In this document: positions 2,534-64,000 of the stretch, piece by piece
Layout: each line of letters opens with the position of its first letter
Position numbering within the stretch: position 1 is the first letter of the stretch
IMG/VR virus record: IMGVR_UViG_3300022562_001204
Coordinates: 78,551 to 142,550 of that record
DNA from: a virus
Lineage: Duplodnaviria; Heunggongvirae; Uroviricota; Caudoviricetes
Length of the DNA: 64,000 nucleotides
Direction: 5' to 3' (one strand)
The notes under the pieces: generated by a model
What the model was told of the DNA's origin: nothing
The model's input: only the letters and a program-made list of their open reading frames with translations
Database searches by the model: none
Translations under genes and position numbers: made by a program

Positions 2534-2670
2534 AGCGGCCTCTATGAGGATTGGAGATGAGAAATTCGATGGCGCAGAGCTGCACTCAAAAGATAGTAAG
2601 GTATACTGGTTTAGATATTCTCTGGTAACCAACAACCTGTGTCCACCCTTCCTATAAGGAACTAAAACGT

Positions 2671-49701: not shown

Positions 49702-50847
49702 TCAGCCCCAGGGGCCGTTCTTCATGGTCAGCCGCATGGCGTTGCCGAGGGTATTGCCCTCTTCACGCACCTTCTTCTTGCGTTTGATCTCGTCAGCCCG
49801 ACGAATGCTGACTTCCTTGGTGAGAAGGTCCACCAGGTCGATGTCCTTCATGGTCTCGCCCACCTGCTCGGCCGTCAGGAGCTTCTCGAGCTTCTTGCTG
49901 ACTTCCTTGGTGAGTTGTTCGATCAGGCGTTCCGAGACGGTCTTCTCGGTCAGGGTGACCAGTAGTTCCGAGTTCTGGTCTGTCGGACTGGGTACGGCCA
50001 CCTTTATCTTGAAGAGGTCGCCAAGGGAGGATGCCTGCTCGGCGGCCCTCTGAGCAACGAAGTCCATCACCTCTTTGACATATTCCTTTCCAAAAGCTGG
50101 GATGGCGGCTTCCTGGAGAGGCTCTGAGGGGGACGCGATATTCAAGAACGGTGTGTACTTGGGTTCACTGAACTGGATCTGCTCGCCCTGACGCGGATGG
50201 ATGTGGTCACTGAGGGTGATCGAGATCGGTGCCGTTTGCTTGGTCTGGTTCAATCCAGGATACGGTGTTCCGGTCTGACTCACCAACTGACCTGTATGGG
50301 GGTCTCGGGCCACCTCGGTCCTGTTCTGATCAAATGGCCCGTACGTCCCCACGTACCCGGCATTTGAGTCACGGACTTCTACGACAGGCATCGAGTTTTT
50401 CAGCAAGTTTCTGACATGAAAGGAAATCTTGTCCAGGCCGATGAGGTCCAGGTTGGTTTTGGAAACGGTATCTTCGTGTGTCATGGGGGGAAGTTCCATT
50501 GGGGAGAGGGCAATGCTCATGAGACGATCGAAACTGTACAACCGGCCAGAGAAGCTCATGACCTGGTCTCGAACTTCCAGAAACTTCCTGGAAGCGAACG
50601 CCTTTGGCCAGGCCAATACTTCAGCCAGATTGTGGCCATGGACCAGATGGTTGATCACCGGGTCGTTGGTCGGGCCATTGCCCTCGATTGAGCCGGGGGG
50701 ACTCTTGAGTTCGAGCGACTTGAACTTTGCAATCGTCTTGGCTTGCTCGGCCTTGTGGTTGTGACGAGCGAAGATCGACTCGAGCAGACTCAGGTTCGAG
50801 GCCTTCCAGATACCTTGGTCCCCTGAATCAAAGAATTTCAAACCCAT
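49702..50847 (-). CDS. hypothetical protein (381 aa), possibly virion-associated
   Basis: Long ORF at the proximal end of the structural block. TGA stop. Confidence 0.5.
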   Translation of the reverse strand: MGLKFFDSGDQGIWKASNLSLLESIFARHNHKAEQAKTIAKFKSLELKSPPGSIEGNGPTNDPVINHLVHGHNLAEVLAWPKAFASRKFLEVRDQVMSFSGRLYSFDRLMSIALSPMELPPMTHEDTVSKTNLDLIGLDKISFHVRNLLKNSMPVVEVRDSNAGYVGTYGPFDQNRTEVARDPHTGQLVSQTGTPYPGLNQTKQTAPISITLSDHIHPRQGEQIQFSEPKYTPFLNIASPSEPLQEAAIPAFGKEYVKEVMDFVAQRAAEQASSLGDLFKIKVAVPSPTDQNSELLVTLTEKTVSERLIEQLTKEVSKKLEKLLTAEQVGETMKDIDLVDLLTKEVSIRRADEIKRKKKVREEGNTLGNAMRLTMKNGPWG

Positions 50848-50946: not shown

Positions 50947-51255
50947 CTACGGGGTGTAGACGAGGGTCAGCACCCAGTAGTCGTCACCACCCTTGACACC
51001 TTTGTGGTTGGCTGCAACAGCTTGGGTCCAGCCAGCGCTGTCGGTAAATTCTGACTCAAGGAAGGCGATCTCGCCGACCGTGAGGACGCCGTCATACTTG
51101 AAACGGTACTCGACTTCCGGGGAGGTCCGGTAGTTGATAGCGCTGTCGATGAACCCCTGGTCTGCCAAGAGGTCATTGATGGTCGGGACCATGGCCGTGA
51201 TGTCGTTACGGACGTACTGGCTAGCCTGGCCAAGTTCTGCGGGGGAGACGGGCAT
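50947..51255 (-). CDS. hypothetical protein (102 aa), TAG stop followed by Phe-TAA
   Basis: ORF ending in TAG, then TTT, then TAA. Confidence 0.5.
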   Translation of the reverse strand: MPVSPAELGQASQYVRNDITAMVPTINDLLADQGFIDSAINYRTSPEVEYRFKYDGVLTVGEIAFLESEFTDSAGWTQAVAANHKGVKGGDDYWVLTLVYTP

Positions 51256-51301: not shown

Positions 51302-52021
51302 TTAACCGCGACGGAAGAGTGCGATGTCATACCCCAGTGTTTCTGTACCGTCACCCAGAGCGTCGATCAGTGGTTGATTCACTTCTTGACCGTTATGCTC
51401 GGCTAGGTGCACACTGGTCAAATTGACGACCACTTCGCCCAGGTCCCTGCGAAGCAGTACCTCGACATTCAACTGAATAAAGTGCACGTGATGATCACAT
51501 ACCAGTGAGCGCAATCGAGGGTCTGTCAGCAGGCTACCATTTATCTGACGGGTCTTGGCGGATAGACCGACTACCACATAGTCGAAAGTATCGGACTCAA
51601 GCGAAAAGACATTGGTGAACATATCGGGCATCGAAGAACGGGCACTGCTGAATGCGACGACATTGTCACCGATCTTCATGTAGATCGTCATAAAGGCCCC
51701 ACACGTCATCAGCCCGTCAATAGACGAATGAAGTCTATCCCGGGCGGTGTCCTCGGTCATGGACACCGCGAGCATGTCGTATTTGACACCGAACTTCATG
51801 GGGGCGGTCGTTACGACATGGCCCGAGTCCAGTCTGACTCGCTTGGCCGGGACAAACGACTCATCAACGAAGAGGTGTCTGGTGGATTCGGTGACGACGG
51901 GGACGCAGAGCCTTGGGAGGCTTCGATTGAAGGGGAGCCGTTCGGTCGTATCTTGAAGTGACAACGGATCTTTCAGCGCATCCGCCAGGTTAGTTTCGCT
52001 GAACTGGATTGTCTGGGCCAT
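51302..52021 (-). CDS. hypothetical protein (239 aa)
   Basis: GAATAAGGAATAACA before the ATG. TAA stop. Confidence 0.5.
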   Translation of the reverse strand: MAQTIQFSETNLADALKDPLSLQDTTERLPFNRSLPRLCVPVVTESTRHLFVDESFVPAKRVRLDSGHVVTTAPMKFGVKYDMLAVSMTEDTARDRLHSSIDGLMTCGAFMTIYMKIGDNVVAFSSARSSMPDMFTNVFSLESDTFDYVVVGLSAKTRQINGSLLTDPRLRSLVCDHHVHFIQLNVEVLLRRDLGEVVVNLTSVHLAEHNGQEVNQPLIDALGDGTETLGYDIALFRRG

Positions 52022-52030
52022 TGTTATTCC

Positions 52031-52249
52031 TTATTCGAAGATCCAGAGGCGTCCGCCCCTGTAATGATTGCTGGTCTTTTTCACCTTGAGGCTGTGACGG
52101 ACAAGGACTTTGACGTCCATACCCTGTCGAAACTCCACGATCTTGTCGGTGACGCGCCCCAGTTTCCCGGAGCATGGCCCTGACTCGATCTGGCGATCGG
52201 AAGCAAACTCGGCATAATCGCCCTCTTGAAAATCGTGATCCATGAGCAC
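52031..52249 (-). CDS. hypothetical protein (72 aa)
   Basis: TAA stop. Confidence 0.4.
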   Translation of the reverse strand: MLMDHDFQEGDYAEFASDRQIESGPCSGKLGRVTDKIVEFRQGMDVKVLVRHSLKVKKTSNHYRGGRLWIFE

Positions 52250-52303
52250 TCCTTGTAAAGTCAGAGTATGACAGCCTCAAATAAAATATATCGAACCTAA
52301 AAG

Positions 52304-52333
52304 AGATAGGGAGGGCTTTCGCCCTCCCTATCT
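52304..52333. terminator. stem-loop agatagggagggc-tttc-gccctccctatct
   Basis: 13-bp perfect stem. Confidence 0.4.
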
Positions 52334-52340
52334 CAGTTTG

Positions 52341-52946
52341 TCACAAAGATTCCGCGTCGGTCACGGCGCTAGCTTCATTGGTGCCGCCACCCACCACCGT
52401 GACATCCCCGCTATTGCTGGTGTCAGTATCGCCCGATGTATCATCCAGGCTGGTGTCGGTGTCGACATCGGTCGTGATGAGATCATCATCACTGGTCATA
52501 TCGCTATCCGAGAGCGTCCCTGGGAAGGTGTACTCTGATCCAGCGAAGGTGGGTTCCACTGCAAGCAGGGTATTGATGTCATCCCAGGTCTTGTAGGGGT
52601 TGATGTAGTAGATGAAGGGGAGACCTTGCGAAGCCAGGTCGTATCTCACGACAGCCAGGCAGTACGTGGGGTCTTCCAGCTGGGTTTGTCGAGTTGACGC
52701 ACGGACGACGATCTGATAACCATCCATGGTCAGCTCGGGTGTCACGAGTACCGACTCGTCAGTCAGGAGGTCTTGAGTGTAGACCGCCTTGACGATGATG
52801 TATCGAGCCGGCATCATTGACAACTCGCCGATGGTCCAGCTACCTGGGAGTGGGAGGGCGTTACCCTCCTCATCCAGGGCGTCTGGGAAAGGGAGTACCG
52901 CACGAGCGGCATCCTCATCTGTGAATCGCAGCAGTGCGTCGAACAT
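52341..52946 (-). CDS. hypothetical protein with Asp/Thr/Ser-rich acidic C-terminus (201 aa)
   Basis: TGA stop. Confidence 0.5.
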   Translation of the reverse strand: MFDALLRFTDEDAARAVLPFPDALDEEGNALPLPGSWTIGELSMMPARYIIVKAVYTQDLLTDESVLVTPELTMDGYQIVVRASTRQTQLEDPTYCLAVVRYDLASQGLPFIYYINPYKTWDDINTLLAVEPTFAGSEYTFPGTLSDSDMTSDDDLITTDVDTDTSLDDTSGDTDTSNSGDVTVVGGGTNEASAVTDAESL

Positions 52947-52947
52947 G

Positions 52948-55302
52948 TTAGGTCACCCTGGCCATGAGAGTCGTGAGATCTTCAGGGGCTCGAACAAAAG
53001 CCACTTTCTTGATGTACCCGCCCAGAGGACTCGCCCCATTCTCAGACCCCAGATACATGGTGTCGATATAGGCATACTCAGAGTCCGTGAATGCCTGGGT
53101 CTGCACGGTACCAGACACAGATTCGGCGTAGATGTTGTTGTGATACCAGTTCATCGCCAACACCGCTTCTTCCCCTGAGGTCAGTGCCCCCAGGGACTTC
53201 GTGGTGACCGTGTCCACGTTGTTGGTCTTGTAGACGGCTGCGGCACCACCAGACTGACGGTAGAGGACGATACGTTGGGTACTGGCTGCTGATCGACGGA
53301 CCGCGAGGTACTGACTGACGTCCGTCGAGTAGCCTGGGACGATCTTCCCAGCGAAGGCCCCTACGGCCTTATCGTAGAGGAAGGTGTTGTTCAACGTCAC
53401 GACATCGGCTAGACGAGCTGTCGTAGACCCCTCGCTGATGATTGGCGAGTTGATGCTGGTGACGCCTTCCTCGTACTGGGCTCCCCAGACATAGAACCCA
53501 GAAACCCCGTCGCCTAGGTAGGTGTTACCGCTGGTGACATCGGTACCGTTCATGATCGTGAAGCGGAATGACGAACTCGATGCAGAGACACCCGTTGCCA
53601 CACACCAGTACCATCCATCGTTCAATGGGACAATACGAGCTGTATTCCAGGTGGTACCCACACGAGCCACGACCCCCGTGTTCAGGTCAAAGATGGGGTA
53701 GTTACCCCCGATACCCATGCCACGGAAACCCAAGTAACGGGTAGCGGAGCCTGGAATGACCTTCGCAAAGATCGAGCAAGCGAAGTTGACACCGTTCGTA
53801 GTGACCGCAGAGCAGATGTTCTCACGAACGTTTGTGGTATCGTCCTCAACAATCGAACAGGCCATACTGGTGTCTCCCAGTGGGGAGACAGCGGCATCGG
53901 CGGTTACAGTGGAGTAATTGGTCGTCCAGCTACTATCCGTGAGCAGGTTGCTGTAAGTGATGAGGTTGGTTCTGGCGCTACCCTGCATGAACCCATTGGC
54001 ATTGATAGCCGGCTGTCCTGCTGGGTACAGCACCACGCGTCCACTGACAATATCCCAGGCTGAACTGGACCTTGAGAAGGTCGCGTACGGAGGATGGGAC
54101 TTATGGACAGTGTAGTCGTGGGTATACGACGTCGGGGCCACGGCCTTCAGCATGTGGTTCAAACCAACGACATCTTTGGAGTACGCCATCGAGCAGATGG
54201 TCGAATTCCAGAAACTACCGGAGGTCGCTGTACAACCAATGGTCAGGGTATCAAAGTTCGCGATGTTGGGAAGCGTCGTCATGGATTGCTCCGACGCCCC
54301 CTGAAGCATTGCGAAAAACCCCCGGGTAGACCAGTTCGCAGCTACGGAAACCATGGTGTTTCCAGTGACGGCTCCGAGCGTCGTGTTCGTGATCGTTCCA
54401 TCGATGGACGTCTGCATCACCATGTACCCTGCGGCGGTGACGTAAATGATCAGTCGGTCGGTGTTGTCATTTGACAGGGAGAGCTGCCACAGTACCCTGG
54501 AGTAGGTACCGATGGCTGGGGTGACTGCCGTAAACGCCAGAGACCCCGAATATAGTCCGAACATGTTGGACGACGACATATAGACGGACTCCGCCTTTCT
54601 AGAAGTCGTCGCTCCAGTCGTGTTCAGGATCACACTCGTTACACCCACCCCTTCTTCAAAGGACGGGAGTACCGCATAGAGGACTGTGCCGGCGCTGGCC
54701 TGTACGCGCATGACGTCTGCAGCGTTGTAATCACCACTGTTCAGAACAGAGGTGTCTACAGAGTACCTGGCGTATTGGCTACCTACAGTTACGGCTGAGT
54801 TTGGAGGGTTTGTATACCCCGTACGCAAACGAATGGACCCGATTCCTCGGGCGTAGACGGATAGCGTGTGTACGTTGGTGTCACCAGTCAGCCCAGTGTA
54901 CTGGATATAGGCAGGGGTTGTGCCGAGTCTATTGTCCAGCATTACTGCGTTATTGTTCGTCAAGATACCGGAAAGTCCAGCCTCCGCAATGCAGGTACTG
55001 TCAGTTATCATTGACAGCACCGCCGCGGAGTCCCCAACAGACGTAATGCCCGTTAAGTCGGTTGGGTTCGAGAGGGGTAGTGTTTTATTGGCACGACCTC
55101 CCTCGATAACGATCCCGTAGTCATTGACACGGATGGTACCGGCAGCGGCTACCAGTAGCTCACCGTTCAGCCGGTAGGTGGACGGATCCGTACCCGTGTA
55201 AGTGGCCCAGGCGGGTAAGCCGTCTCGGAAGTCGACAGTGTGAATGATGGGCGTGCGGCTAGCGCCTCGGCTGACCGAGGTGCTCGTGGCGCTACTCTTC
55301 AT
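52948..55302 (-). CDS. tail fibre protein with LamG/concanavalin-like region, paralog A (784 aa)
   Basis: Shares the blocks GSATRYLGFRG, NDGWYWC, GAQYEEGVTSI and TARLADVVT with 56563..58917. Rich in Thr/Ser/Gly/Asn, typical of beta-rich fibre proteins. TAA stop. Confidence 0.6.
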   Translation of the reverse strand: MKSSATSTSVSRGASRTPIIHTVDFRDGLPAWATYTGTDPSTYRLNGELLVAAAGTIRVNDYGIVIEGGRANKTLPLSNPTDLTGITSVGDSAAVLSMITDSTCIAEAGLSGILTNNNAVMLDNRLGTTPAYIQYTGLTGDTNVHTLSVYARGIGSIRLRTGYTNPPNSAVTVGSQYARYSVDTSVLNSGDYNAADVMRVQASAGTVLYAVLPSFEEGVGVTSVILNTTGATTSRKAESVYMSSSNMFGLYSGSLAFTAVTPAIGTYSRVLWQLSLSNDNTDRLIIYVTAAGYMVMQTSIDGTITNTTLGAVTGNTMVSVAANWSTRGFFAMLQGASEQSMTTLPNIANFDTLTIGCTATSGSFWNSTICSMAYSKDVVGLNHMLKAVAPTSYTHDYTVHKSHPPYATFSRSSSAWDIVSGRVVLYPAGQPAINANGFMQGSARTNLITYSNLLTDSSWTTNYSTVTADAAVSPLGDTSMACSIVEDDTTNVRENICSAVTTNGVNFACSIFAKVIPGSATRYLGFRGMGIGGNYPIFDLNTGVVARVGTTWNTARIVPLNDGWYWCVATGVSASSSSFRFTIMNGTDVTSGNTYLGDGVSGFYVWGAQYEEGVTSINSPIISEGSTTARLADVVTLNNTFLYDKAVGAFAGKIVPGYSTDVSQYLAVRRSAASTQRIVLYRQSGGAAAVYKTNNVDTVTTKSLGALTSGEEAVLAMNWYHNNIYAESVSGTVQTQAFTDSEYAYIDTMYLGSENGASPLGGYIKKVAFVRAPEDLTTLMARVT

Positions 55303-56444
55303 TATGCCAGCTCAGAGATGTACAGAACCGCCGACGCTGCAGACTCGCCATCCGCGATGATCGCGGAGATGGTGCTGTTGGCCGGTACTCGGAAGTCCTT
55401 GCTACCACCATCCAAGCAGACATGCCCGGTAGTGCTCGTTACCGTCGCCGTGGCGCTGGTCTCCACCATGAACATAACCTTGGCACCGGAGGCTGTGATG
55501 CTTACGCGGGTGGTGGTCGTGGTCAGTGTCACATAGGCTGCCACGGTGGTGCAGGCAATCTGGCTCCCCGCTCCCAGCAGACCCAGGGGTTCTGAGCTGA
55601 CCCGGCCGCCCAGCAACTGATCCGTGGCTACCGCGACACTCAGAGATGCCGAGGCTGCCTTGGCGCCCAGAGTGCTAGGCAGCTGGCCAGCAATCGCCGC
55701 CAGAGTCGTATTACCCGTGGTCTGAAGTGCTGATGTGGATGCACCACTCGGAAGCGGAAGGGCTGCGGCAGAGACAGGGACCGCTGATTGGTCGTTGGCC
55801 ACGACCACCGACATAGACGCCGTCATGGCCTTCTGACCAATGGTCGTCGGGAGCTGGGCTCGCATGTTAGTGATATTGGTGTTCACTGTAGTGACACCAG
55901 CCGCGGTAGCTGCTCCCGTGGGAAGCGGTAGCGCAGCTGCCGAGATCGGCAACGTACTTTGATCTGACGACACCACGACCGGGAGGGACAGTGCCATGGT
56001 CTTTTGACCGACGGACCCAGGGAGTTTCCCGTCGATTTCGGTGACTGCGGTGATCAGCGTCGACTGATGTGTCGCAGTAGCGTAGTCAGACAGACTCACC
56101 GGTACGGAAGTCTGGTCAGATGCCAGCGTCACGGAGAGGGAGCTGACAGAGGTCTGGCTACCCAGGGAGCTTGGGAGCTTCCCGCTCATCGTCGTGATCG
56201 CGGAGATCACTGACGTCAGTGAAGCCAGCGCTCGCTTGAAAAGCGAGATAAAGGTGAAACTTCCACTATCTGACGTCGCAGCAGCGTCATCCTTCGAGCC
56301 GAAGGCCACATCCGCACCATCTGCAACGGTCACGGCACCGGAACTACCACTGCCGCTGCCACTACCGGTACCTCCACCCTTGACGACTACACCAATGTAG
56401 TACTCGCCATCATCGCCCTTTACCACTTTAAATTCATCGGACAT
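55302..56444 (-). CDS. Gly/Ala/Thr/Ser-rich tandem-repeat fibre protein, short paralog (380 aa)
   Basis: The N-terminus (MSDEFKVVKGDDGEYY...GSGSGSGSS) is followed by repeats of GKLP.S.G.KT.A.SLSV..ASDQ...PVS..ALPLPTGA and a C-terminal ...YISELA. The start is coupled to the upstream gene through a TAATG overlap. Confidence 0.55.
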   Translation of the reverse strand: MSDEFKVVKGDDGEYYIGVVVKGGGTGSGSGSGSSGAVTVADGADVAFGSKDDAAATSDSGSFTFISLFKRALASLTSVISAITTMSGKLPSSLGSQTSVSSLSVTLASDQTSVPVSLSDYATATHQSTLITAVTEIDGKLPGSVGQKTMALSLPVVVSSDQSTLPISAAALPLPTGAATAAGVTTVNTNITNMRAQLPTTIGQKAMTASMSVVVANDQSAVPVSAAALPLPSGASTSALQTTGNTTLAAIAGQLPSTLGAKAASASLSVAVATDQLLGGRVSSEPLGLLGAGSQIACTTVAAYVTLTTTTTRVSITASGAKVMFMVETSATATVTSTTGHVCLDGGSKDFRVPANSTISAIIADGESAASAVLYISELA

Positions 56445-56562
56445 ACGTGTTTCCTCGAATCCAATCCCGAATAAATAAAGATTCCAAAAGATTGCCCGAC
56501 CCCTGCCCTGACATAAAGACAGTCACACACCCGGACTATTGGGTGTGTGACTGTCCCTGTCG

Positions 56563-58917
56563 TTATATTACGCGGACCAGCAGGGCGTCTATGGCCTCTG
56601 GATAACGAGAAAACACCACCTTGTAAACTCGTCCATTCCAATACGCATTGCCGTTCTCACTACCGAGCAGCACTGTCACATAGTTCGCAGACTGGCTCAG
56701 TGTCAATGTTCCCGTTGCTTGGGTACCATTGTACTGCTTGCCATACATCTTCTCATTCTTCCAGGTCATGCCGATGTTCGTCACTGTGCCGTTCGCCACG
56801 GTGACGATACTCGTGGTCGCACCGCCATCGACGGTGTTTGTACGATACATACTCATGTTCCCGGCAGCGGTTCGGTACAACAAGAACCTATCAGAGCCGG
56901 TAGACCCTCGTCTTGAGAAGAGGTATTGGTTCAGCTGTGGATCCGTGGTGGTTAGTGCTTTCGCAGCAAACCCACCCGTGTAGTCTGAGTACAGCTGACT
57001 GTAATCCACAGTGACTACATCCGCCAAACGATTCGTGGTCGCACCCACACTGAACACCGGTGTCAGGATACTAGTGACGCCCTCTTCGTATTGAGCGCCT
57101 GCCAAGTAGAACCCTGAAGCCGTATCCCCAGTATAGGATTGCGCCCCTGACGGCGACGTGCTGGTGAGATAAACAAAGGAGAGTGGAGTGGTGCTAGCAG
57201 TGGTGCAGGTGGCAGTACACCAATACCAGCCGTTGTTGAAGCCCTTGATACTGGCGGCGGTCCATTGGGACCCCGTCCTGAGGACGGTTCCGTTGACGAT
57301 GTCAAAGACCGGGTAGTCTGTATCGACGCCTAGGCCACGGAAACCCAGGTACCGAGTGGCGCTCCCTGTGACGACCTTCACAAAGACACCGACAGCTGCC
57401 AGTACCCCGGAGGTTGGTACTTTGGCGCACTGGGCGCTGTGTACCGAGGTATCCGTGGTCTCCATCAGGGTCTTGACAAACAGACCATTTAAAGGAGTCT
57501 CGATAGTACCTGTACCCACAGACAGACCCGTCTTGGTCCAGGTACTCTGACTAAAGTCATGGCTGTACGTCAGTAGGTTGGTTCGAGCTTCGAAGATCTC
57601 GATCCCCGTGGCGGCTACGGCGGGGGTACCTGCAGCATATTGGAAGATACGGCCGTCGGTGGCCGTCATCGCAATGCTGTTTCGAGAGATCGAGAGGTAG
57701 GGTGGTAGGGACTTGTGGTTTCGGAAGTCGAAGACCTGATACGGAATCTCCACTCCTTTTAATAGAGTCTTGACATCCGCAAAGAGTTTCGAGTAGGCCA
57801 TGCACCGAATGGCCCCACCCCAGCCATAGCTGCCGTCAGAGAGCGCCCCGACATACAGAGCGTTATAACTGCTGACGTTGGAGGGCTGAGTGATCTGGTA
57901 CGTGGTACCGCCCAGGAGTTTAATACGGATCAGCCCGCTACCCCAGGTAATCGCTACCGAGATGAAGGCCCCGCCCGTGACGGTCCCGATTACCGTGTTG
58001 GTAGTTGTCCCTGAGAGGACAGTTTGAGCAATGACCGATCCCGTCGTACCGACGCCGATACTGATTCGGTTATTGACGTCTCCTGAGATGGAGTACTGGA
58101 ATAACAGGGCGTTGTTTCCCAAAGTAGGGGTCAGAGCTGTGAAAGCCAAACCTCCCTTGGTGGGATTAAACATCTTGGTTGGATCCAGCAGAAGACTGTC
58201 TGCTGACCGGGTCACTGTGCTGGTGGTGCTGTTCGCAATGGGTGTAGAGGCAACAACCGCCTCCTCAAAGCACATGAGGATCGCATAAACCACCGCACCA
58301 GGCTGGGCCTGTATCCAAATGTAGTCGTTACTGACCTTACTGCCAGCTGAGAGGGTGCTTTGATTGGAGACACACCTGCGGTACGTGGTATTCAGCGTGA
58401 AGAGGCTATTGCTGGGGTCTGTGAAGGCAGTCCTCAGCTTGACATCCCCATATCCCCGGACATAGGCCGAGATACAGTGCGTCGCTGCATTACCTGTGGT
58501 CCCAGTGAAAGCCATACTCGCAACGGTCGTACCGGCACTGTTGTCCAGTTTGTAAACATAGCTGTTCGAACAGACCCCGCTCAGCCCAGCCTCATTAAGG
58601 TAATAGACATCGGTCACTACAGAGAGCACTGAGTTAGCATCACCGACCTTCGTAACCCCTGTCGTATCGACCGGGTTATAGTTGACGACGGTGATCTTGT
58701 TCGTACGGGCTTCCTGCATCACGAGCCCGTAGCTATTCTTTTTGATGGTGTTCGCGGCTACAATAGAAGAAACACCCTCCACCCGCATGACTGCGGATGA
58801 AGGGGTCGAGTACGTTCCAAAACTCGGGATTCCTGAGTTCAGGAAGTCATGCTTGTAGACCGGGACCGAGGTCGGCGGAGCGACCGGTGAGTTGATACGT
58901 GTCCCGAACAGCTTCAT
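56563..58917 (-). CDS. tail fibre protein with LamG/concanavalin-like region, paralog B (784 aa)
   Basis: Paralog of 52948..55302. TAA stop. Confidence 0.6.
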   Translation of the reverse strand: MKLFGTRINSPVAPPTSVPVYKHDFLNSGIPSFGTYSTPSSAVMRVEGVSSIVAANTIKKNSYGLVMQEARTNKITVVNYNPVDTTGVTKVGDANSVLSVVTDVYYLNEAGLSGVCSNSYVYKLDNSAGTTVASMAFTGTTGNAATHCISAYVRGYGDVKLRTAFTDPSNSLFTLNTTYRRCVSNQSTLSAGSKVSNDYIWIQAQPGAVVYAILMCFEEAVVASTPIANSTTSTVTRSADSLLLDPTKMFNPTKGGLAFTALTPTLGNNALLFQYSISGDVNNRISIGVGTTGSVIAQTVLSGTTTNTVIGTVTGGAFISVAITWGSGLIRIKLLGGTTYQITQPSNVSSYNALYVGALSDGSYGWGGAIRCMAYSKLFADVKTLLKGVEIPYQVFDFRNHKSLPPYLSISRNSIAMTATDGRIFQYAAGTPAVAATGIEIFEARTNLLTYSHDFSQSTWTKTGLSVGTGTIETPLNGLFVKTLMETTDTSVHSAQCAKVPTSGVLAAVGVFVKVVTGSATRYLGFRGLGVDTDYPVFDIVNGTVLRTGSQWTAASIKGFNNGWYWCTATCTTASTTPLSFVYLTSTSPSGAQSYTGDTASGFYLAGAQYEEGVTSILTPVFSVGATTNRLADVVTVDYSQLYSDYTGGFAAKALTTTDPQLNQYLFSRRGSTGSDRFLLYRTAAGNMSMYRTNTVDGGATTSIVTVANGTVTNIGMTWKNEKMYGKQYNGTQATGTLTLSQSANYVTVLLGSENGNAYWNGRVYKVVFSRYPEAIDALLVRVI

Positions 58918-61900
58918 TAGGTCAGTTCCGATATGTAGAGAGTGGCCGCCGTGGCGGTCTCACCACTGGCGATGACGTACGAAATGTAGCTGTTGGCTGG
59001 GATTCGGATGTCCTTGTCGCGGCCGTCCAGGATGATGTGCCCTGAGGCAGCTGCGGCTGTCGGGGTAGACGTCGTGTCGATCATGAAGATCACACGAGCC
59101 CCGTAGGCCGTCAAGCCGAGTCGGGTCGTGGTGGTGGTCAACTGTGTGCTGGTCGAGGTGGTCGTTACATCGAGTACGCGCGCGGTGCCCAGTGAGCTAA
59201 GGGGTTCTGTGCTAACGCGGGTACCGAGCAACTGATCCGTCGCGACCGCTACGGACAGAGACGCTGAGGCAGCTTTGACCCCGATGGTAGTCGGCAGCTG
59301 GGCTCGCAGGTTGGTGATGTTCGTATTAAGCGTCGTCTGGTTGGCTGAGGTCGCGGCACCTGACGGGAGTGGCAGGGCTGATGCGCTGATTGCCACCGTC
59401 TGGTCCGATGGGAGGACCACAGGCAGAGACGCTGCGGATGTCTTTTGGCCCACGCTTGCTGGAAGCTGCCCAGAAATCGTGGTGAGTGTGGAGTTTCCTG
59501 TGGTCTGGAGTGTAGCGGTCGCAGCACCTGAGGGCAAGGGGAGTGAGGCTGCCGACACTGCCAGGGTCGCGATATCCGTAGCAAACCCAATGGACAGTGA
59601 TGCCGCTGTGCTCTTAGCTCCCAACGTGGCTGGGAGCTTATTGCTCATTGCCGCTACGGTCGTCTCTGTTGCTGCGCCGCTGGGTAGCGGTAGAGAAGCA
59701 ACCGAGGTCGGTACGGTAGCCTGGTCAGAAGCCAACACCACCGAGAACGAGTTAGCTGACGTCTTGGCGCCCACGGACGTCGGGAGTTTCCCCGACATCG
59801 CGGACAGCGTGGTTTCCGTAGCGGCGCCTGTCGGGAGCGGCTGGGATGCCAGGCTGACAGGGACTGTCGACTGATCAGAGGCCAAAACCACGGACATGGA
59901 AGCAGTAGATGCCTTCTGTCCCAGGGTGGCAGGGAGCTTTCCATTGATCCCAGAGAGGGTCGTATTACCCGTGGTCTGGAGATCCGAGGTCGCCGCATTG
60001 GTCGGAAGGGGCAGAGCCGTCGCCGAGATCGGCACCACGCTCTGGTCCGACGCGATCACCACCGCCATGGAGTTAGCGGAAGTTTTCTGACCAATGGTTG
60101 AAGGGATCTGCCCCGTCAGGTTGCTGAGAATACTGTTTCCAGTACTCTGCAACGCTGCAGTCGAAGCACCTGTGGGAAGCGGCAGAGCCGAGGCAGAGAT
60201 CGGCACAGCCGCCTGGTCATTAGCGATAACAACTGGGAGAGATGCTGACGAAGCCTTGGCACCCAACGAAGATGGCAACTTTGTATTGATCGTCGAGAGG
60301 GTCGTGTTCGCCGTCGTCTGGTTAGCCGCAGTAGCGGCACCTGACGGAAGTGGGGACGCTGCGATCGACACCGGCAGGGTGTCGATATTGCTGGCAAAGG
60401 TCACTGACAACGAAGCCGCTGAGGTATTTTGCCCGATAGTAGCAGGAAGCTGACCGGCGATAGCTGCCAGGGTGTTGTTACCCGTGGTCTGCAATGCCGA
60501 GGTTGACGCACCTGTGGGTGGTGACGCCATCGACACCGGCAGGGTCGCTGTATCCGTAGCTAGGGTCACCGACATCGAGTTTGCCGCGGTCTTGGCACCC
60601 AGGGTCGTCGGGATCTGCGCTCTCAGATTGGTGATGTTGGTATTGACCGTCGTCTGGTTCGCTGCGGTAGCTGCACCCGTGGGGAGCGGCAGCGCAGTCG
60701 CAGAGATCGGTAGTGTCGAGGTATCGGTAGCCAGAGCGACTGAGATACTCTCAGCAGCTGTCTTTGCGCCCAGAGATGCTGGGAGCTGATCTGCGATAGC
60801 CTCAAGGGTAGCTTCAGTCGCCAAACCGTCAGGGAATGTAAACCCAGTCATCGTGACCGGGAGTGCGGCTTGGTCGCTGGCGAAGGTGACCGAGATGCTA
60901 TTCTCAGTTGTCAAGCTACCCAGAGTTGCGGGCAACTGACCTGCAATTCCCTCCAGCGTAGCCTCCGTGGCCAGCCCGTCAGGGAATGTGAATCCGTCCA
61001 CTGAGACAGGAATCGTCGCCTGATCACTGGCGATCGTTACGGACATCGACGCAGCAGCCGTCTTGGTCCCTACCGAAGTAGGAAGACGACCCGCTATCGT
61101 CGACAGACTCGTGTTTCCTGTCGTCTGCAATGCTGCGGTTGACGCCCCTGTGGGGAGCGGCAAAGATGCGGCAGATACGGGGAGGGTCCCCAAGTCTGTC
61201 GCAAACGTCACTGACACACTGTTAGCAGAGGTCTGGGCACCCAGTGACGCGGGGAGTTGTCCAGCGATACCTTCCAGCGTGGCCTCCGTGGCCAAACCGT
61301 CAGGAAAGGTAAACCCATCGATGCTAACCGGAATGGTCGCCTGATCTGACGCCATCACAACTGAAAGCGATGCTGCCGACAGCTGAGACCCCACCGACGT
61401 CGGAAGACGTCCTGCGATGGTGGACAGGGTAGCGTTCCCTGTGGTCTGGTTCGCTGAGGTAGCTGCCCCTGTCGCTAGGGGTACGGAACTCAATGATACC
61501 GGAAGAGTCCCGAGGTCTGAGGCCCACGTCACTGAGAGTGAGTTGACCGATGTCTGTGTTCCTCGTGCACTAGGTAGCTGTCCTGAGATCGCCGAGAGCG
61601 TTGAATTCCCGGTCGTCTGGAGAGCTGACGTCGCGGCGCCACTCGCCAGAGGAAGTGCCGCGCTATCCGAAGCAAAGGTCACCGAGAGACTGCCTGCCGC
61701 AGTCTTGGTCCCTACCGATGCCGGAAGTTTGGTATCGATGTTCGACAACGAGGTATTCCCCGCCGTCTGAAGTGTCGCTGTGGCTGCATCGGCCACTGCC
61801 GGGAATGTCGCGTCCGAGGCAAAGACAACCGACAGGGATTCACTCCCTGTCTTCTGACCGAGCGTGGTGGGAAGTTTCCCGCTCATCGTGTTGATGGCGG

Positions 61901-62168
61901 TAACTGTACTGGTGCTGAGTGTCAAACCTCGCTTATACAGCGCCATGAAACTGAACGAACCCGTGTCACTGGTGGCGACGTTGTCTGCTTTCGCCCCAAA
62001 TGTCACGAACCCACCATCGTTGATACCGACAACATCGGCAACACCACCAGTCCCCCCGGAACTTCCTCCTCCATTGACTGCATAGAAGGCCGGGTACCAC
62101 TGGTCGTCACTGCCTTTTACAAGGGGTGCTTCAATCAACATTTCCATCCTCCTGGACAGAACAACCAA
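58917..62168 (-). CDS. Gly/Ala/Thr/Ser-rich tandem-repeat fibre protein, long paralog (1083 aa, ~23 repeats of ~37 aa)
   Basis: Repeat unit: LP(L)PTGAAT.A.QTTGN.TLS.I.G.LP.S.G.KT.A.S.SV..ASDQ...PVS. The C-terminus reads ...YISELT. TAATG overlap with the upstream gene. Confidence 0.6.
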   Translation of the reverse strand: MVVLSRRMEMLIEAPLVKGSDDQWYPAFYAVNGGGSSGGTGGVADVVGINDGGFVTFGAKADNVATSDTGSFSFMALYKRGLTLSTSTVTAINTMSGKLPTTLGQKTGSESLSVVFASDATFPAVADAATATLQTAGNTSLSNIDTKLPASVGTKTAAGSLSVTFASDSAALPLASGAATSALQTTGNSTLSAISGQLPSARGTQTSVNSLSVTWASDLGTLPVSLSSVPLATGAATSANQTTGNATLSTIAGRLPTSVGSQLSAASLSVVMASDQATIPVSIDGFTFPDGLATEATLEGIAGQLPASLGAQTSANSVSVTFATDLGTLPVSAASLPLPTGASTAALQTTGNTSLSTIAGRLPTSVGTKTAAASMSVTIASDQATIPVSVDGFTFPDGLATEATLEGIAGQLPATLGSLTTENSISVTFASDQAALPVTMTGFTFPDGLATEATLEAIADQLPASLGAKTAAESISVALATDTSTLPISATALPLPTGAATAANQTTVNTNITNLRAQIPTTLGAKTAANSMSVTLATDTATLPVSMASPPTGASTSALQTTGNNTLAAIAGQLPATIGQNTSAASLSVTFASNIDTLPVSIAASPLPSGAATAANQTTANTTLSTINTKLPSSLGAKASSASLPVVIANDQAAVPISASALPLPTGASTAALQSTGNSILSNLTGQIPSTIGQKTSANSMAVVIASDQSVVPISATALPLPTNAATSDLQTTGNTTLSGINGKLPATLGQKASTASMSVVLASDQSTVPVSLASQPLPTGAATETTLSAMSGKLPTSVGAKTSANSFSVVLASDQATVPTSVASLPLPSGAATETTVAAMSNKLPATLGAKSTAASLSIGFATDIATLAVSAASLPLPSGAATATLQTTGNSTLTTISGQLPASVGQKTSAASLPVVLPSDQTVAISASALPLPSGAATSANQTTLNTNITNLRAQLPTTIGVKAASASLSVAVATDQLLGTRVSTEPLSSLGTARVLDVTTTSTSTQLTTTTTRLGLTAYGARVIFMIDTTSTPTAAAASGHIILDGRDKDIRIPANSYISYVIASGETATAATLYISELT
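59170..61840. repeat. coding tandem direct repeats (~111-nt units) inside gene 58917..62168
   Basis: Recurrent DNA blocks such as ggcagctg.c..gcgat and ggtctg.a.tgc...g..c repeat at a ~111-nt period, mirroring the 37-aa protein repeat. Confidence 0.6.
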
Positions 62169-62208
62169 TCCTTAGCTATATGATCGTTTTGTAAAAGAAC
62201 AGTCAAAA

Positions 62209-62238
62209 TACCTACCAGAACTTCGGTTCTGGTAGGTA
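62209..62238. terminator. stem-loop tacctaccagaa-cttcgg-ttctggtaggta
   Basis: 12-bp perfect stem between the stop at 62261 and the start at 62168. Confidence 0.4.
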
Positions 62239-62260
62239 TCTATATCTATTAACTTTTTCG

Positions 62261-64000
62261 TTATGAACCCTTCGGGTAGTACCCAAGAGGGACCATAAAG
62301 TCGCTGGTGTACCGACAGACGCCTCGTGTGATACGAAGGCCCTTGAGGTACCCCTTCATGTAGCGAGAGGTGAATGATGAGTTCTGCCACCCAATGCGAA
62401 TCGCGGTCCCATTGTCGGCGTTGACACCTGTTTCGGTACCAGAAGCCTCGAGGTGTCCATTCAGGAACAGGTACCAGTTACCGGAAGCGTCACGGGTTGC
62501 GGCAACATGACACCAGGTGTCAAGCGTCACCGCAGTGGTTGAGAGCAGGTTGATTGCCGTGGTACCTGCTGGCGAGTAGTGAATGAAACTCACTAGCCCA
62601 CTCGAAGATACCGAGAGGTTCCACCCCGTAGCCCCGCCAGTATCTGTCTCTCGTCGAGAGACCAGGGTACTATTGTCAGAGAAGGAAGTGATATTGGCGA
62701 AGATCTCGATGGTAAACGCGACGTCTGGTACCCAGTTAGTTGAGGTCGGGATGGTGACGTAACTACTGGCGCTACAAGTATAGGCCGTTCCAAAGTCGCC
62801 ATAGGGACCGTCAACCAGGGTAGAGGTCGGGGATCCCACCGTTGTCAGCGTTCCAACCACTTCGTCAGCAAAAGTTGTAGTCCCGACTCGCATATCCAGA
62901 CTGGAGAACGACACCACGCTGGCCCAATAAGGATCCTTCCAGGGCTGGTTGTCCTTATATAGGTGGTCATCTGCGAAGTTGCCAGTGAGTCCGTACTTGT
63001 GTGCCAGGTACCCTTCTACACGACGGGGGTCGTAAAGGTTGGGTTTGCTCTTACCAAAGACCGTTTCGGCTAGTTTCCCAGGGAAGTAGTTCACGGAAGC
63101 CGGGGTAGCCGAGTTACTGGCACCGATACGGCTGTAGTCCAGGGCGGACGTACTCGAACCACTACCCGTTCCTGAGAAGGTTCCAGTTACATAGTCGACC
63201 TGAATACCGTCTTGGTAAGCCTCGATCGTTCTGGAGTTTGTACTGACGTTGACCCCAGAAATGGTCCAGGTATCTGCGACGGCGTTGAAATCACCCGTGT
63301 AGATACTTCCAGTATCGGAGGTTCTAACCCCGATGTGGAAGGGCGTCAGCGTAATACGAGCCGCTCCAGCGCTGTTTGCAGATGCAAAACTGACCAGAGG
63401 GTACCCGTCTGTAGCGACATCCACGCTATAAAGCATGTACCCCCAGAACTGGTTTAGGGAGTTCCAAAGCGCAGCTGCCCCAGTGATCTTCAAAAACTGA
63501 TCGGTACCATTGAAGACCAGGACATCGTGACCATTGAGGGCGTCTGCCTCGTAAGTCGGTGCCGTCCCCGTCGTGCCTGTTGCTGTGTAGCCACTTCCGG
63601 CCACATCCGCCCACGAGAGGATCTCAGTGCCGCTGTAAGTGAAACTCTCGTCACCGTTGTACCAGATAACGGGCTTAGCCAGCTGCATAGAAGCAGGGGT
63701 CCACTCCTCATTGATACGAACCAAGGCGGTGGCGTTATCGCCAAGGTATCCATCTCCCTGGTAGTTGGACAATACGACCGTAAGCGTCTTTGGCCAGTCC
63801 TCAGACGCAAAGATCTGGAACTCAATGAACTGATCCTCCGCATCCCCGTCTGCCCAGGTAAGGGTGCCGGCGATACCGGCATACTCGTTACCCAGGGTGG
63901 CCGTACCGTCAACAAAGGCATAGTCGACCGATACGGTACCAAAGGTGTCCTCTGTGCGAGTGACCCTGAGGGTAGCCGTATCACCTGCGACGTCATATTC
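62261..64000 (-). CDS. large structural protein (partial, N-terminus beyond window) with Calx-beta-like and LamG-like domains
   Basis: The ORF-track start at 63772 is an internal TTG. Hand-translating 63773..64000 in the same frame gives 76 further codons without a stop (…VSVDYAFVDGTATLGNEYAGIAGTLTWADGDAEDQFIEFQIFASEDWPKTLTVVLSNYQ…), a Calx-beta-like motif. The C-terminal part reads …GYLKGLRITRGV, LamG-like. TAA stop. Confidence 0.6.
   Translation of the reverse strand, partial: EYDVAGDTATLRVTRTEDTFGTVSVDYAFVDGTATLGNEYAGIAGTLTWADGDAEDQFIEFQIFASEDWPKTLTVVLSNYQGDGYLGDNATALVRINEEWTPASMQLAKPVIWYNGDESFTYSGTEILSWADVAGSGYTATGTTGTAPTYEADALNGHDVLVFNGTDQFLKITGAAALWNSLNQFWGYMLYSVDVATDGYPLVSFASANSAGAARITLTPFHIGVRTSDTGSIYTGDFNAVADTWTISGVNVSTNSRTIEAYQDGIQVDYVTGTFSGTGSGSSTSALDYSRIGASNSATPASVNYFPGKLAETVFGKSKPNLYDPRRVEGYLAHKYGLTGNFADDHLYKDNQPWKDPYWASVVSFSSLDMRVGTTTFADEVVGTLTTVGSPTSTLVDGPYGDFGTAYTCSASSYVTIPTSTNWVPDVAFTIEIFANITSFSDNSTLVSRRETDTGGATGWNLSVSSSGLVSFIHYSPAGTTAINLLSTTAVTLDTWCHVAATRDASGNWYLFLNGHLEASGTETGVNADNGTAIRIGWQNSSFTSRYMKGYLKGLRITRGVCRYTSDFMVPLGYYPKGS

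What the first reader, a model, noticed from the sequence alone, without database searches (positions are those of the whole stretch)
52948..62168. Duplicated module of a LamG-like 784-aa fibre protein followed by a TAATG-coupled Gly/Ala/Thr/Ser repeat protein; the long copy has ~23 tandem 37-aa repeats
Two paralogous 784-aa proteins (52948..55302, 56563..58917) are each followed by a repeat protein whose start shares the A of the upstream TAA (TAATG). The repeat proteins are 55302..56444 (380 aa) and 58917..62168 (1083 aa). The repeat unit LP(L)PTGAAT.A.QTTGN.TLS.I.G.LP.S.G.KT.A.S.SV..ASDQ...PVS is highly regular at protein and DNA level (~111-nt period), so copy number is prone to expansion and contraction, a possible length-variable fibre. 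Both repeat proteins share N-terminal (…G(D/S)DD..YY…GGG(S/T)G…) and C-terminal (…YISEL(A/T)) caps.
Basis: seen in the sequence. Interest (0 to 1): 0.6.

Follow-up and report, generated by a model that had tools for sequence, protein, structure and literature searches.

The report
Duplicated phage fibre-plus-lectin gene pair
A giant (phiKZ-like) phage carries two old copies of a two-gene unit, a repeat-built fibre protein (17 or 4 units of 50-57 residues) followed by a sugar-binding-type protein, most likely long and short host-recognition fibres; the kind is ordinary for phages, but the repeat itself is in no protein family or structure database searched.

Summary
Each repeat protein comes first, and its TAA stop overlaps the ATG of the 784-aa protein.

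The repeat is not 23 x 37 aa. It is 17 units (long copy, 1074 aa from the likely ATG) and 4 units (short copy) of 50-57 aa. The units are about 45% identical in protein and 51% in DNA. Third codon positions are at chance level and the longest exact DNA repeat is 17 nt. The array is therefore old and is not a slippage-prone locus.

The 784-aa paralogs (39% identical) are built from ConA/LamG-like beta-sandwich domains. They carry the "GTA head spike fiber" domain (RcGTA Rcc01080, PDB 6TB9).

The repeat has more than 1,000 relatives, and every genomic context examined but one was phage. It has no significant Pfam, PHROG or NCBIfam family, and its unit profile matches no PDB sequence. One single-unit relative is an MS-confirmed virion protein.

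Best reading: two hairpin-bounded operons encode a long and a short adhesin fibre, each made of a shaft protein and a translationally coupled lectin protein. Whether they sit on the tail or the head is unresolved. Modest interest.

The parts
62261..64000 (-). C-terminal part of a large protein (at least 1416 aa) with Laminin_G_3 / Calx-beta / Laminin_G_3; it runs off the window. This is the upstream neighbour and probably another adhesin.
   Evidence: The frame is open to the window end. Pfam Laminin_G_3 scores E 2e-20 on the last 503 aa. A 1416-aa gene call with LamG/Calx-beta exists in an independent contig.
62206..62241 (-). 16-bp perfect hairpin followed by a U-rich tract, terminator-like; it separates the large LamG gene from module 1.
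   Evidence: MFE -26.2 kcal/mol, z -6.9, 0 of 200 shuffles as good; sequence.
58917..62141 (-). Long repeat (shaft) protein, 1074 aa from the ATG at 62141 (ORF listing gives a TTG at 62168, 1083 aa). It has an N-cap, 17 repeat units and a C-cap of about 90 aa.
59196..61925 (-). Array of 17 units of 50-57 aa, with family consensus TGAATxAxQTTGNTxLxxIxGxLPxxxGQKxxAASxPVVIASDQSxxPVSxxxxPLP.
   Evidence: HMM domains with E 1e-10 to 1e-27; segmentation; autocorrelation.
58915..58919 (-). TAATG stop/start overlap: stop of the long repeat gene and start of 784-aa paralog A.
   Evidence: Sequence.
56563..58917 (-). 784-aa lectin-type protein, paralog A. The GTA_spike_fiber domain lies at aa 442-614 (nt 57076..57594).
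   Evidence: NCBIfam NF048003 scores 83.9 bits against a cutoff of 36; 39% identical to paralog B.
56510..56561 (-). Long hairpin (17 uninterrupted pairs, 21 in all) followed by UUUAU, terminator-like; it separates module 1 from module 2.
   Evidence: MFE -35.9 kcal/mol, z -6.2, 0 of 200 shuffles as good; sequence.
55302..56444 (-). Short repeat (shaft) protein, 380 aa: N-cap, 4 units (nt 55584..56231), C-cap. GAGGAA precedes the ATG.
   Evidence: The identical protein (P0001) lies on a 257-kb contig.
55300..55304 (-). TAATG stop/start overlap: stop of the short repeat gene and start of 784-aa paralog B.
   Evidence: Sequence.
52948..55302 (-). 784-aa lectin-type protein, paralog B, read as four beta-sandwich domains (two halves of two). 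The GTA_spike_fiber domain lies at aa 443-630 (nt 53413..53976).
   Evidence: NF048003 scores 106 bits. PDB 6TB9 Rcc01080 matches at E 5.5e-19. In the AF2 model aa 440-784 have pLDDT mostly 70-95. Foldseek results. Internal duplication.
52341..52946 (-). 201-aa protein with an Asp/Thr/Ser-rich acidic tail. Its ATG lies 1 nt after the stop of paralog B, and it is the last gene of module 2. It has no homolog in any library searched.
52303..52334 (-). 14-bp GC-rich hairpin followed by UUUU; intrinsic-terminator-like end of module 2.
   Evidence: MFE -30.4 kcal/mol, z -7.3.

Best explanation
Two paralogous operons of a phiKZ-like jumbo phage each encode a host-recognition fibre made of two proteins.

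The first gene gives the shaft. It has a short N-terminal beta-hairpin and Gly/Ser linker (inferred virion attachment end). This is followed by a chain of 50-57-aa units, each a helix of roughly 20 residues with a heptad-like Q/N/L/I/L core, then a beta/extended SxSVVxASDQ..PVS segment and a Pro-rich linker. It ends in a small beta-rich C-terminal knob.

The second gene starts on the shaft gene's stop codon (TAATG), so the two are made together. It encodes a 784-aa protein read as four ConA/LamG-like beta-sandwich domains, including the domain of the RcGTA head-spike fibre, which binds capsular polysaccharide. This protein is inferred to be the glycan-binding part, either docked on the shaft or mounted beside it.

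One operon makes a 17-unit (long) shaft and the other a 4-unit (short) shaft. Their lectin proteins are only 39% identical. The phage would thus display adhesins of two reaches and probably two glycan specificities.

Shown: gene order, coupling, repeat anatomy, paralogy, domain homology and fold, phage context, and age of the repeats.
Inferred: oligomeric fibre structure, shaft-lectin complex, glycan binding, and position on the virion (tail favoured over head).
For: - Minus-strand order and TAATG at both junctions, conserved despite 39-51% protein divergence.
- Strong hairpins bound the two modules.
- 17 and 4 units by HMM.
- The AF2 monomer model gives one 17-24-residue helix per unit (blocks covering the helices reach mean pLDDT about 70-82), then an extended segment, and a beta-rich C-cap.
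- The 784-aa proteins carry NF048003 GTA_spike_fiber well above cutoff and match Rcc01080 of PDB 6TB9 at E 5.5e-19. That protein mediates attachment to the capsule polysaccharide (PMC7296036; PMC5026251).
- Foldseek matches CBM40, LNS/LG domains and the Pa193/E217 baseplate chain (E 3e-8). It also matches full-length phage 'ConA-like lectin' proteins and annotated tail fibre proteins (E down to 2e-25).
- tblastn hits fall in proteins annotated tail or tail fibre in RcapMu, T5-like and cyanophages, and PHROG 5939 'tail protein' scores E 3.5e-37.
- Repeat-family members sit in phage structural regions, next to Baseplate_J and tail tube genes in L011.
- Cyanophage CL131 ORF025, with one unit, was detected in purified virions by LC-MS/MS (PMC6293099 SI Table 5).
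- Phage identity: a PhiKZ_MCP-like gene, internal head protein genes, and a 257-kb contig.
Against: - No direct evidence that the shaft oligomerises. The monomer AF2 model is poor (pLDDT 56.8) and has no significant fold match.
- No evidence that the shaft and the 784-aa protein bind each other. In six other phage loci with a repeat protein, the downstream gene is unrelated to the 784-aa protein, checked by sequence in three and by Pfam in all six; CL131 has an arabinofuranosidase-like domain there. Four loci with the GTA_spike_fiber domain have no repeat protein.
- The closest characterised homolog is a head fibre, and an MCP-like gene lies just downstream. A head location is therefore not excluded.
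- Glycan binding is inferred from fold and homology only.
Confidence: 0.6

Rival explanations
1. These are head fibres or spikes, not tail fibres. As in RcGTA, a base or shaft protein sits on the capsid and carries a flexible lectin fibre for first reversible contact with capsule polysaccharide.
For: The only experimentally characterised homolog of the 784-aa protein is the RcGTA head spike fibre Rcc01080. Like ghsA-ghsB, this is a two-gene unit. A PhiKZ_MCP-like gene lies about 300 nt downstream of the module. The C-cap of the shaft gives weak, non-significant cupin/jelly-roll-like fold matches, and the RcGTA base protein is a jelly roll.
Against: The N-terminal Ile/Leu-Gly repeat that docks Rcc01080 into its pentameric base is absent from both 784-aa proteins. 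The shaft protein has no detectable similarity to Rcc01079. Phage homologs are annotated as tail or tail fibre proteins, and a relative of the repeat protein lies beside baseplate and tube genes.
Confidence: 0.2
2. The two genes of each module make independent virion components. The repeat protein is a complete fibre with its own C-terminal receptor-binding knob, and the 784-aa lectin is mounted separately (for example on the baseplate periphery). The TAATG overlap only ensures co-expression.
For: Across the repeat family the C-terminal domains vary and the downstream genes differ, as expected if the C-terminal domain itself is the specificity element. The best solved-structure match of the 784-aa model is a baseplate chain of about 500 aa; gp46, baseplate wedge 2, is the only Pa193 baseplate protein of that length.
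Against: The stop/start overlap is conserved in both old paralogous modules. Shaft and lectin were duplicated together and have stayed paired.
Confidence: 0.3
3. One reading: a length-variable fibre whose DNA-regular tandem array expands and contracts between isolates, as in a contingency locus.
For: Copy number differs widely between paralogs (17 against 4) and across the family (2-18 units). Unit number therefore does change over evolutionary time.
Against: TRF finds no array. Unit DNA identity is 36-69%, mean 51%. Third-position identity is 0.315 against 0.274 expected by chance, and the longest exact repeat is 17 nt. Gene lengths are identical in an independent assembly.
Confidence: 0.05
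4. The long array is an assembly artefact, either collapsed or expanded.
For: Repeat regions can break assemblies. A related scaffold (L011) has a gap between two repeat genes.
Against: The units are too diverged to mis-assemble. The ORF is intact through 1074 codons. The same 1074-aa call occurs in a separately assembled contig.
Confidence: 0.02

Closest known systems
RcGTA head spike GhsA/GhsB (Rcc01079/Rcc01080; PDB 6TB9, 6TBA, 6TSU, 6TUI)
   Same: The 784-aa proteins contain the Rcc01080 domain (NF048003; E 5.5e-19 to the solved chain). Both are two-gene units in which the second gene encodes the polysaccharide-binding part, and both have a role in adsorption.
   Different: Here the domain is one of what reads as four beta-sandwich domains in a protein 2.4 times longer. 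The N-terminal (I/L)G-repeat docking peptide is missing. The upstream partner is a long repeat protein rather than a jelly-roll pentamer base, with no detectable homology. The position on the virion is unknown.
Phage ConA/LamG-like lectin tail proteins (BFVD models A0A6J5M666 and A0A6J5SN07; tail fibre proteins of Escherichia phages NBEco002, EdH4 and rolling; RcapMu tail fibre protein)
   Same: Full-length or half-length fold matches (E 2e-25 to 1e-10), similar size, and similar tandem beta-sandwich architecture.
   Different: Sequence identity is only 13-22%. None of them is known to be coupled to this repeat shaft.
Long and short fibre sets of myoviruses (T4 long and short tail fibres), stated from general knowledge
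   Same: Two fibre types of very different length are encoded by one phage, giving a plausible two-reach adsorption logic.
   Different: There is no sequence relationship. Here the two are paralogs differing mainly in unit number. Function is inferred, not shown.
Segmented coiled-coil and beads-on-a-string phage fibres (T4 fibritin, from general knowledge; Pa193 gp47 tail fibre, PMC11456595)
   Same: Short helical segments alternate with beta-structured segments along a fibre. The conserved positions of the unit follow an a/d-like 3-4 spacing with polar Q/N layers.
   Different: There is no detectable homology. The oligomeric state and the fold of the 50-57-aa unit are not established.
Aphanizomenon cyanophage vB_AphaS-CL131 ORF025
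   Same: It carries one copy of the same unit (tblastn E 1e-12). It is a virion protein by LC-MS/MS. The next gene overlaps it and encodes a sugar-related domain.
   Different: It has a single unit within a different architecture, comes from a siphovirus, and its downstream gene is unrelated to the 784-aa protein.

Membership tests
GTA head spike fibre domain family (NCBIfam NF048003; Rcc01080/GhsB) | Match to the domain HMM above the curated cutoff | tested here: met
   83.9 and 106.2 bits against a cutoff of 36. phmmer to PDB 6tb9_F3 gives E 5.5e-19 over aa 385-637.
GTA head spike fibre domain family (NCBIfam NF048003; Rcc01080/GhsB) | N-terminal Ile/Leu-Gly repeat peptide (IALGLGLGL) that docks into the pentameric base | tested here: not met
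   The N-termini are MKSSATSTSVSRGASR... and MKLFGTRINSPVAPP.... The motif is described in PMC7296036.
GTA head spike fibre domain family (NCBIfam NF048003; Rcc01080/GhsB) | Upstream partner homologous to the jelly-roll base protein Rcc01079/GhsA | tested here: not met
   The upstream gene is the repeat protein. Its phmmer search of the PDB did not return the 6TB9 base protein. A weak cupin-like fold signal for the C-cap is not significant.
GTA head spike fibre domain family (NCBIfam NF048003; Rcc01080/GhsB) | Location on capsid pentons | not testable with these tools
   Needs cryo-EM or immuno-EM.
LamG / concanavalin A-like lectin fold | Sequence match to Pfam Laminin_G_3 (PF13385) | tested here: not met
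   No Pfam family at E <= 0.1 for either 784-aa protein. Two distant homologs (P0124, P0126) do carry PF13385.
LamG / concanavalin A-like lectin fold | Beta-sandwich fold superposable on LNS/LG/CBM domains | tested here: met
   The AF2 model has pLDDT mostly 70-95 for aa 440-784. Foldseek gives probability 1.0 to CBM40, neurexin LNS and laminin LG4-5 and to phage 'Concanavalin A-like lectin' models.
DNA tandem repeat / contingency locus | Head-to-tail DNA units similar enough for slippage or unequal recombination | tested here: not met
   TRF gives 0 rows. Unit identity is 36-69%. The longest exact repeat is 17 nt and third-position identity is at chance level.
Collagen-like fibre | Gly-X-Y triplet runs | tested here: not met
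   The longest G-x-x run is 2 triplets.
Leucine-rich repeat proteins (weak PDB hits to plant LRR receptor kinases) | LRR unit period, about 24 residues in plant LRR receptor kinases | tested here: not met
   The period is 50-57 aa. The hits are per-domain insignificant (i-E >= 0.1) and rest on the shared G-x-[IL]-P-x-x-[IL]-G motif.
Trimeric segmented coiled-coil phage fibre | Helical segments with an a/d heptad core, and trimer formation | tested here: inconclusive
   AF2 predicts one 17-24-residue helix per unit. Conserved positions Q9, G12/N13, L16, I19 and L23 of the unit fit a 3-4 spacing (alignment A2).
Any described protein family for the 50-57-aa unit | Significant match in Pfam, PHROGs, NCBIfam or PDB sequences | tested here: not met
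   Pfam gives only sub-threshold DUF6641 (17 bits against 27). PHROGs gives only a weak hit to an unannotated family for the long protein and nothing for 8 of 9 relatives scanned, with one further weak hit to an unannotated family. NCBIfam gives none. The PDB profile search gives 0 hits at E <= 10.

The most novel reading that the evidence does not exclude
The 50-57-aa unit (TGAATxAxQTTGNxxLxxIxGxLP...VVIASDQSxxPVS) defines an undescribed, widespread structural class of phage fibre shaft: a helix-plus-beta 'bead' that sets fibre length by unit number, 2 to 18. In this jumbo phage its C-terminal knob docks a four-lectin adhesin made by translational coupling. The result would be a modular long/short adhesin system that works like the RcGTA base-plus-fibre spike but is built on a different scaffold.
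Probability: 0.25. Interest if true: 0.55.

Novelty: new variant of a known kind. Interest (0 to 1): 0.35.

Why it matters
Receptor-binding fibres decide phage host range, and for phiKZ-like jumbo phages they are poorly defined.

This locus pairs a known glycan-binding domain (the RcGTA head-spike fibre type) with a shaft repeat that more than a thousand proteins share; the contexts examined were nearly all phage. No family or structure database searched describes that repeat.

Defining the unit would allow annotation of many 'hypothetical' structural proteins. It would also give a simple ruler, the number of units, for predicting fibre length.

The long/short paralog pair is a natural test of how fibre reach and lectin specificity combine in adsorption. 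None of this changes current concepts, because it is a variant of the familiar modular phage fibre theme.

Tried and rejected
- **Close relatives of the region.** Megablast of 12 kb against GenBank phages found no match. tblastn of the short repeat protein against phages found no match, possibly because of low-complexity masking. A consensus-like query found only CL131 and one uncultured 595-kb phage.
- **Relatives for comparing unit numbers.** An IMG/VR scan with the single protein found nothing. A scan with the paralog alignment found only 4 distant loci without repeat proteins. The metagenome scan confirmed no relative. The exhaustive representative search found 7,713 homologs, but only the protein itself and its paralog are close.
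- **Structure of the shaft.** The AF2 monomer model is poor (pLDDT 56.8). Foldseek on it gave no hit with E < 0.09; the best were 65-72-residue cupin-like segments, treated as non-significant.
- **PDB sequence searches.** The plant LRR kinase hits were rejected as motif coincidence. The unit profile gave no hit.
- **C-cap.** hhalign against the commonest family C-terminal domain (the 'FDSSG' type) gave 39% probability, which is inconclusive. That domain has no significant PDB or Pfam match either.
- **Literature.** A search for the motif strings found nothing. A jumbo-phage fibre search found nothing relevant.
- **Conserved downstream partner across the family.** None was found.
- **Genome scan.** A single-protein query gave 5 loci in Sphingomonadales and Verrucomicrobia genomes.
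- **Split capsid gene.** Only residues 208-397 of a phiKZ-type capsid protein have a counterpart in the window.


Full report
**Observation**

All long ORFs between 49.7 and 64 kb lie on the minus strand. Read 5' to 3' on that strand, the order is as follows.

- The C-terminal end of a large Laminin_G_3/Calx-beta protein (62261 to beyond 64000). The frame is open to the window edge. An independent contig calls a gene of at least 1416 aa here.
- A 16-bp perfect hairpin followed by a U-tract (62206..62241; z -6.9).
- The long repeat gene (58917..62141).
- 784-aa gene A (56563..58917).
- A long hairpin with 17 uninterrupted pairs, 21 in all (56510..56561; z -6.2).
- The short repeat gene (55302..56444).
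- 784-aa gene B (52948..55302).
- A 201-aa gene that starts 1 nt after the stop of B (52341..52946).
- A 14-bp GC-rich hairpin with a U-tract (52303..52334).

At both junctions the sequence is ...TAATG....

The long gene most likely starts at the ATG at 62141, giving 1074 aa. AGGAGG lies 6 nt upstream. The N-terminus then aligns residue for residue with the short paralog. A separately assembled Logan contig has gene calls of 1074, 784, 380, 784 and 201 aa.

**The repeat**

- Protein autocorrelation peaks at lags 50, 57 and 107 (0.25-0.27 against a 0.10 background). Lags 37, 74 and 111 are at background.
- Motif segmentation and an HMM built from 19 units (A2) both give 17 units in the long protein and 4 in the short one, with E 1e-10 to 1e-27 per unit. 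Start-to-start spacing is 44-59 aa.
- The 7-aa difference between 50- and 57-aa units is the presence or absence of an xxSLPLP linker.
- Units are on average 45% identical in protein and 51% in DNA, with a maximum of 69%.
- By codon position, identity is 0.52, 0.71 and 0.315, against chance values of 0.28, 0.33 and 0.27. At identical Ala/Thr/Ser/Gly/Pro/Val/Leu residues the third base agrees in only 30.5% of cases. The longest exact direct repeat in the gene is 17 nt.
- TRF reports nothing, and the repeat finder gives copies of 60-73% identity.

The array is therefore old and is held by selection on the protein. It offers no substrate for slippage or unequal recombination, and it is not at risk of assembly collapse. 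No Gly-X-Y run exceeds two triplets, so the protein is not collagen-like.

**The 784-aa proteins**

- They are 39% identical over 766 aa (E 4e-180). Each is internally duplicated: aa 603-784 of paralog A align with aa 208-424 of paralog B (E 1e-7).
- Both carry NCBIfam NF048003, 'phage head spike fiber domain' (84 and 106 bits against a cutoff of 36).
- Paralog B matches the Rcc01080 chain of PDB 6TB9 at E 5.5e-19.
- In RcGTA, one Rcc01080 fibre is held by a pentamer of the jelly-roll base protein Rcc01079 through an N-terminal IALGLGLGL peptide. It mediates attachment to the capsule polysaccharide (PMC7296036). Both genes are needed for adsorption, and their phage homologs are annotated as tail proteins (PMC5026251).
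- Phage hits by tblastn are annotated tail or tail fibre proteins of RcapMu, T5-like coliphages and cyanophages. PHROG 5939 'tail protein' scores E 3.5e-37.
- An exhaustive HMMER search finds 7,713 homologs, often with several copies of the module per protein. Only the protein itself and its paralog are close.
- An AF2 model built on 53 sequences has pLDDT mostly 70-95 for aa 440-784 and for about aa 80-215. It is all-beta.
- In the PDB, Foldseek matches a chain of about 500 residues in the Pa193 and E217 baseplates (E 3e-8). Gp46, 'baseplate wedge 2', which carries the fibre attachment loop, is the only Pa193 baseplate protein of that length. It also matches CBM40 sialic-acid-binding modules and neurexin LNS and laminin LG domains.
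- Among viral models it matches full-length 'Concanavalin A-like lectin' proteins and annotated tail fibre proteins (E down to 2e-25).

'LamG-like' is therefore right at the fold level, although Pfam Laminin_G_3 does not reach significance on the sequence.

**The repeat family**

- The short protein finds 1,279 proteins at E <= 1e-3 among only 8,000 scored candidates. The long one finds 399 at E <= 1e-10.
- The shared part is the repeat. The C-cap is found in no other listed hit, and the N-cap is shared only with P0061.
- Unit number per protein is 2-9 among the best hits to the short protein (mode 4) and 2-18 among those to the long one. Seventeen units is at the upper end but is not unique.
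- Eight genomic contexts were examined. Seven are phage: structural regions, one beside Baseplate_J and tail-tube genes, and others in cyanophage-like or T4-like settings. The eighth is a Novosphingobium chromosome.
- One relative with a single unit, ORF025 of cyanophage CL131, was detected in purified virions by LC-MS/MS (PMC6293099, SI Table 5).
- The unit has no significant match in Pfam, PHROGs, NCBIfam or PDB sequences. The motif strings occur in no paper of the library.
- Weak PDB hits to plant LRR kinases rest on the shared G-x-[IL]-P-x-x-[IL]-G motif and a different period, so I reject them.

**Structure of the shaft (weak evidence)**

- The AF2 monomer model is poor (pLDDT 56.8). It repeatedly gives a 17-24-residue helix over TGAATxAxQTTGNxxLxxIxGxL, with 10-residue blocks covering the helices reaching mean pLDDT about 70-82. 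This is followed by a short helix and an extended stretch. The N-terminus forms a beta-hairpin and the C-cap is beta-rich.
- The conserved positions Q9, G12/N13, L16, I19 and L23 of the unit have the 3-4 spacing of a coiled-coil core with polar layers. The SxSVVxASDQ segment alternates like a beta-strand.
- I infer a segmented helix/beta fibre, probably oligomeric. This is not shown.
- No fold match is significant. The best are cupin-like segments of about 70 residues, possibly the C-cap.

**Mechanism proposed**

Each hairpin-bounded operon makes a shaft protein and a translationally coupled lectin protein. The overlap has been kept in both paralogous modules despite deep divergence, which argues for selected co-production.

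The simplest model has the N-cap attached to the virion and the repeat chain setting the reach: 17 units against 4, about a four-fold difference in shaft length. The 784-aa protein supplies glycan binding, either docked on the C-terminal knob or mounted nearby.

With lectin paralogs only 39% identical, the two fibres probably recognise different surface glycans. The acidic-tailed 201-aa protein at the end of module 2 has no homolog anywhere searched, and its role is open.

**What weakens this model**

- No conserved shaft-lectin pairing exists in other phages.
- The closest characterised homolog is a head fibre.
- A PhiKZ_MCP-like gene lies just downstream.

I therefore keep 'head fibre' (0.2) and 'independently mounted components' (0.3, compatible with the main reading in all but the complex) as rivals.

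**Comparison and novelty**

As a kind of thing, a duplicated, modular phage receptor-binding fibre locus is ordinary, and the lectin partner belongs to a large known domain family.

Two things are new. The first is the shaft repeat, a widespread but undescribed unit. The second is its coupling to a GTA-spike-fibre-type lectin in a phiKZ-like jumbo phage, present as a long/short paralog pair. I rate this a new variant of a known kind, with interest 0.35.

Noticed in passing
window 51302..52090 (-): A 239-aa ORF resembles only the middle of phiKZ-type major capsid proteins: Pfam PhiKZ_MCP positions 124-357 of 635 (E 2e-11), gp120 of PDB 8Y6V residues 232-345, and Phabio MCP residues 208-397. The similarity extends about 23 codons upstream of the ATG. 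The flanking ORFs (102 aa at 50947..51255 and 381 aa at 49702..50847) show no capsid similarity. It may be a capsid-fragment-like paralog or an accessory protein; no full capsid gene is in the window.
   Followed up: partly
window 62261..64000 (-), runs off the window: This is the C-terminal part of a very large protein (at least 1416 aa) with Laminin_G_3, Calx-beta and Laminin_G_3, directly upstream of the fibre modules and separated from them by a strong hairpin. It is probably a third adhesin. The ORF listing reports it as a 503-aa TTG ORF, but the frame is open to the window edge.
   Followed up: partly
window 43507..44553 and 44820..45863 (-): Two adjacent paralogous genes (348 and 347 aa) both match PHROG 9600 'tail assembly protein' (E 1e-34 and 2e-38). 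This is another tandem duplication in the structural region.
   Followed up: no
window 1235..2635 (-) and 2671..4044 (+): Two divergently oriented genes both match PHROG 2497 'internal head protein'. Together with the MCP-like gene and the 257-kb contig length, this is consistent with a phiKZ-like jumbo phage. An NAD-dependent DNA ligase lies at 9931..11721.
   Followed up: no
proteins P0280, P0281 and P0283 (locus L010 10001..15109 for P0280): The longest relatives of the repeat protein (14-18 units, 1479-1702 aa) begin with a typical signal-peptide-like sequence (for example MKKLIPLLLALLALPALADTPAP). Yet P0280, the one whose context I looked at, sits in a phage genome context with PhoH, DNA polymerase A with an intein, and GIY-YIG. 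A signal peptide on a virion fibre protein would be unusual.
   Followed up: no
locus L016 5944..7296 (Novosphingobium fuchskuhlense FNE08-7 chromosome): A 450-aa protein with two units of the same repeat lies among ordinary chromosomal genes (argininosuccinate synthase, an RTX protein, cyclopropane-fatty-acid synthase) with no recognisable prophage genes within 6 kb. Other hits are in Sphingomonadales and Verrucomicrobia MAGs. It could be an orphan phage- or GTA-derived adhesin gene.
   Followed up: partly
locus L011 7537..13558: Another large phage contig (144 kb) has two adjacent repeat-protein genes, with 5 and at least 14 units and different C-terminal domains. They are separated by a scaffold gap (a run of N) and lie near Baseplate_J and tail-tube genes. 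This is a second example of short and long repeat proteins side by side.
   Followed up: partly
tool behaviour: The word-indexed protein search did not return the 784-aa and 1074-aa proteins themselves, although the 380-aa neighbour was found at 100% identity. The exhaustive search did find a 401-aa fragment and the paralog. The absence of close hits is therefore not evidence of absence.
   Followed up: yes
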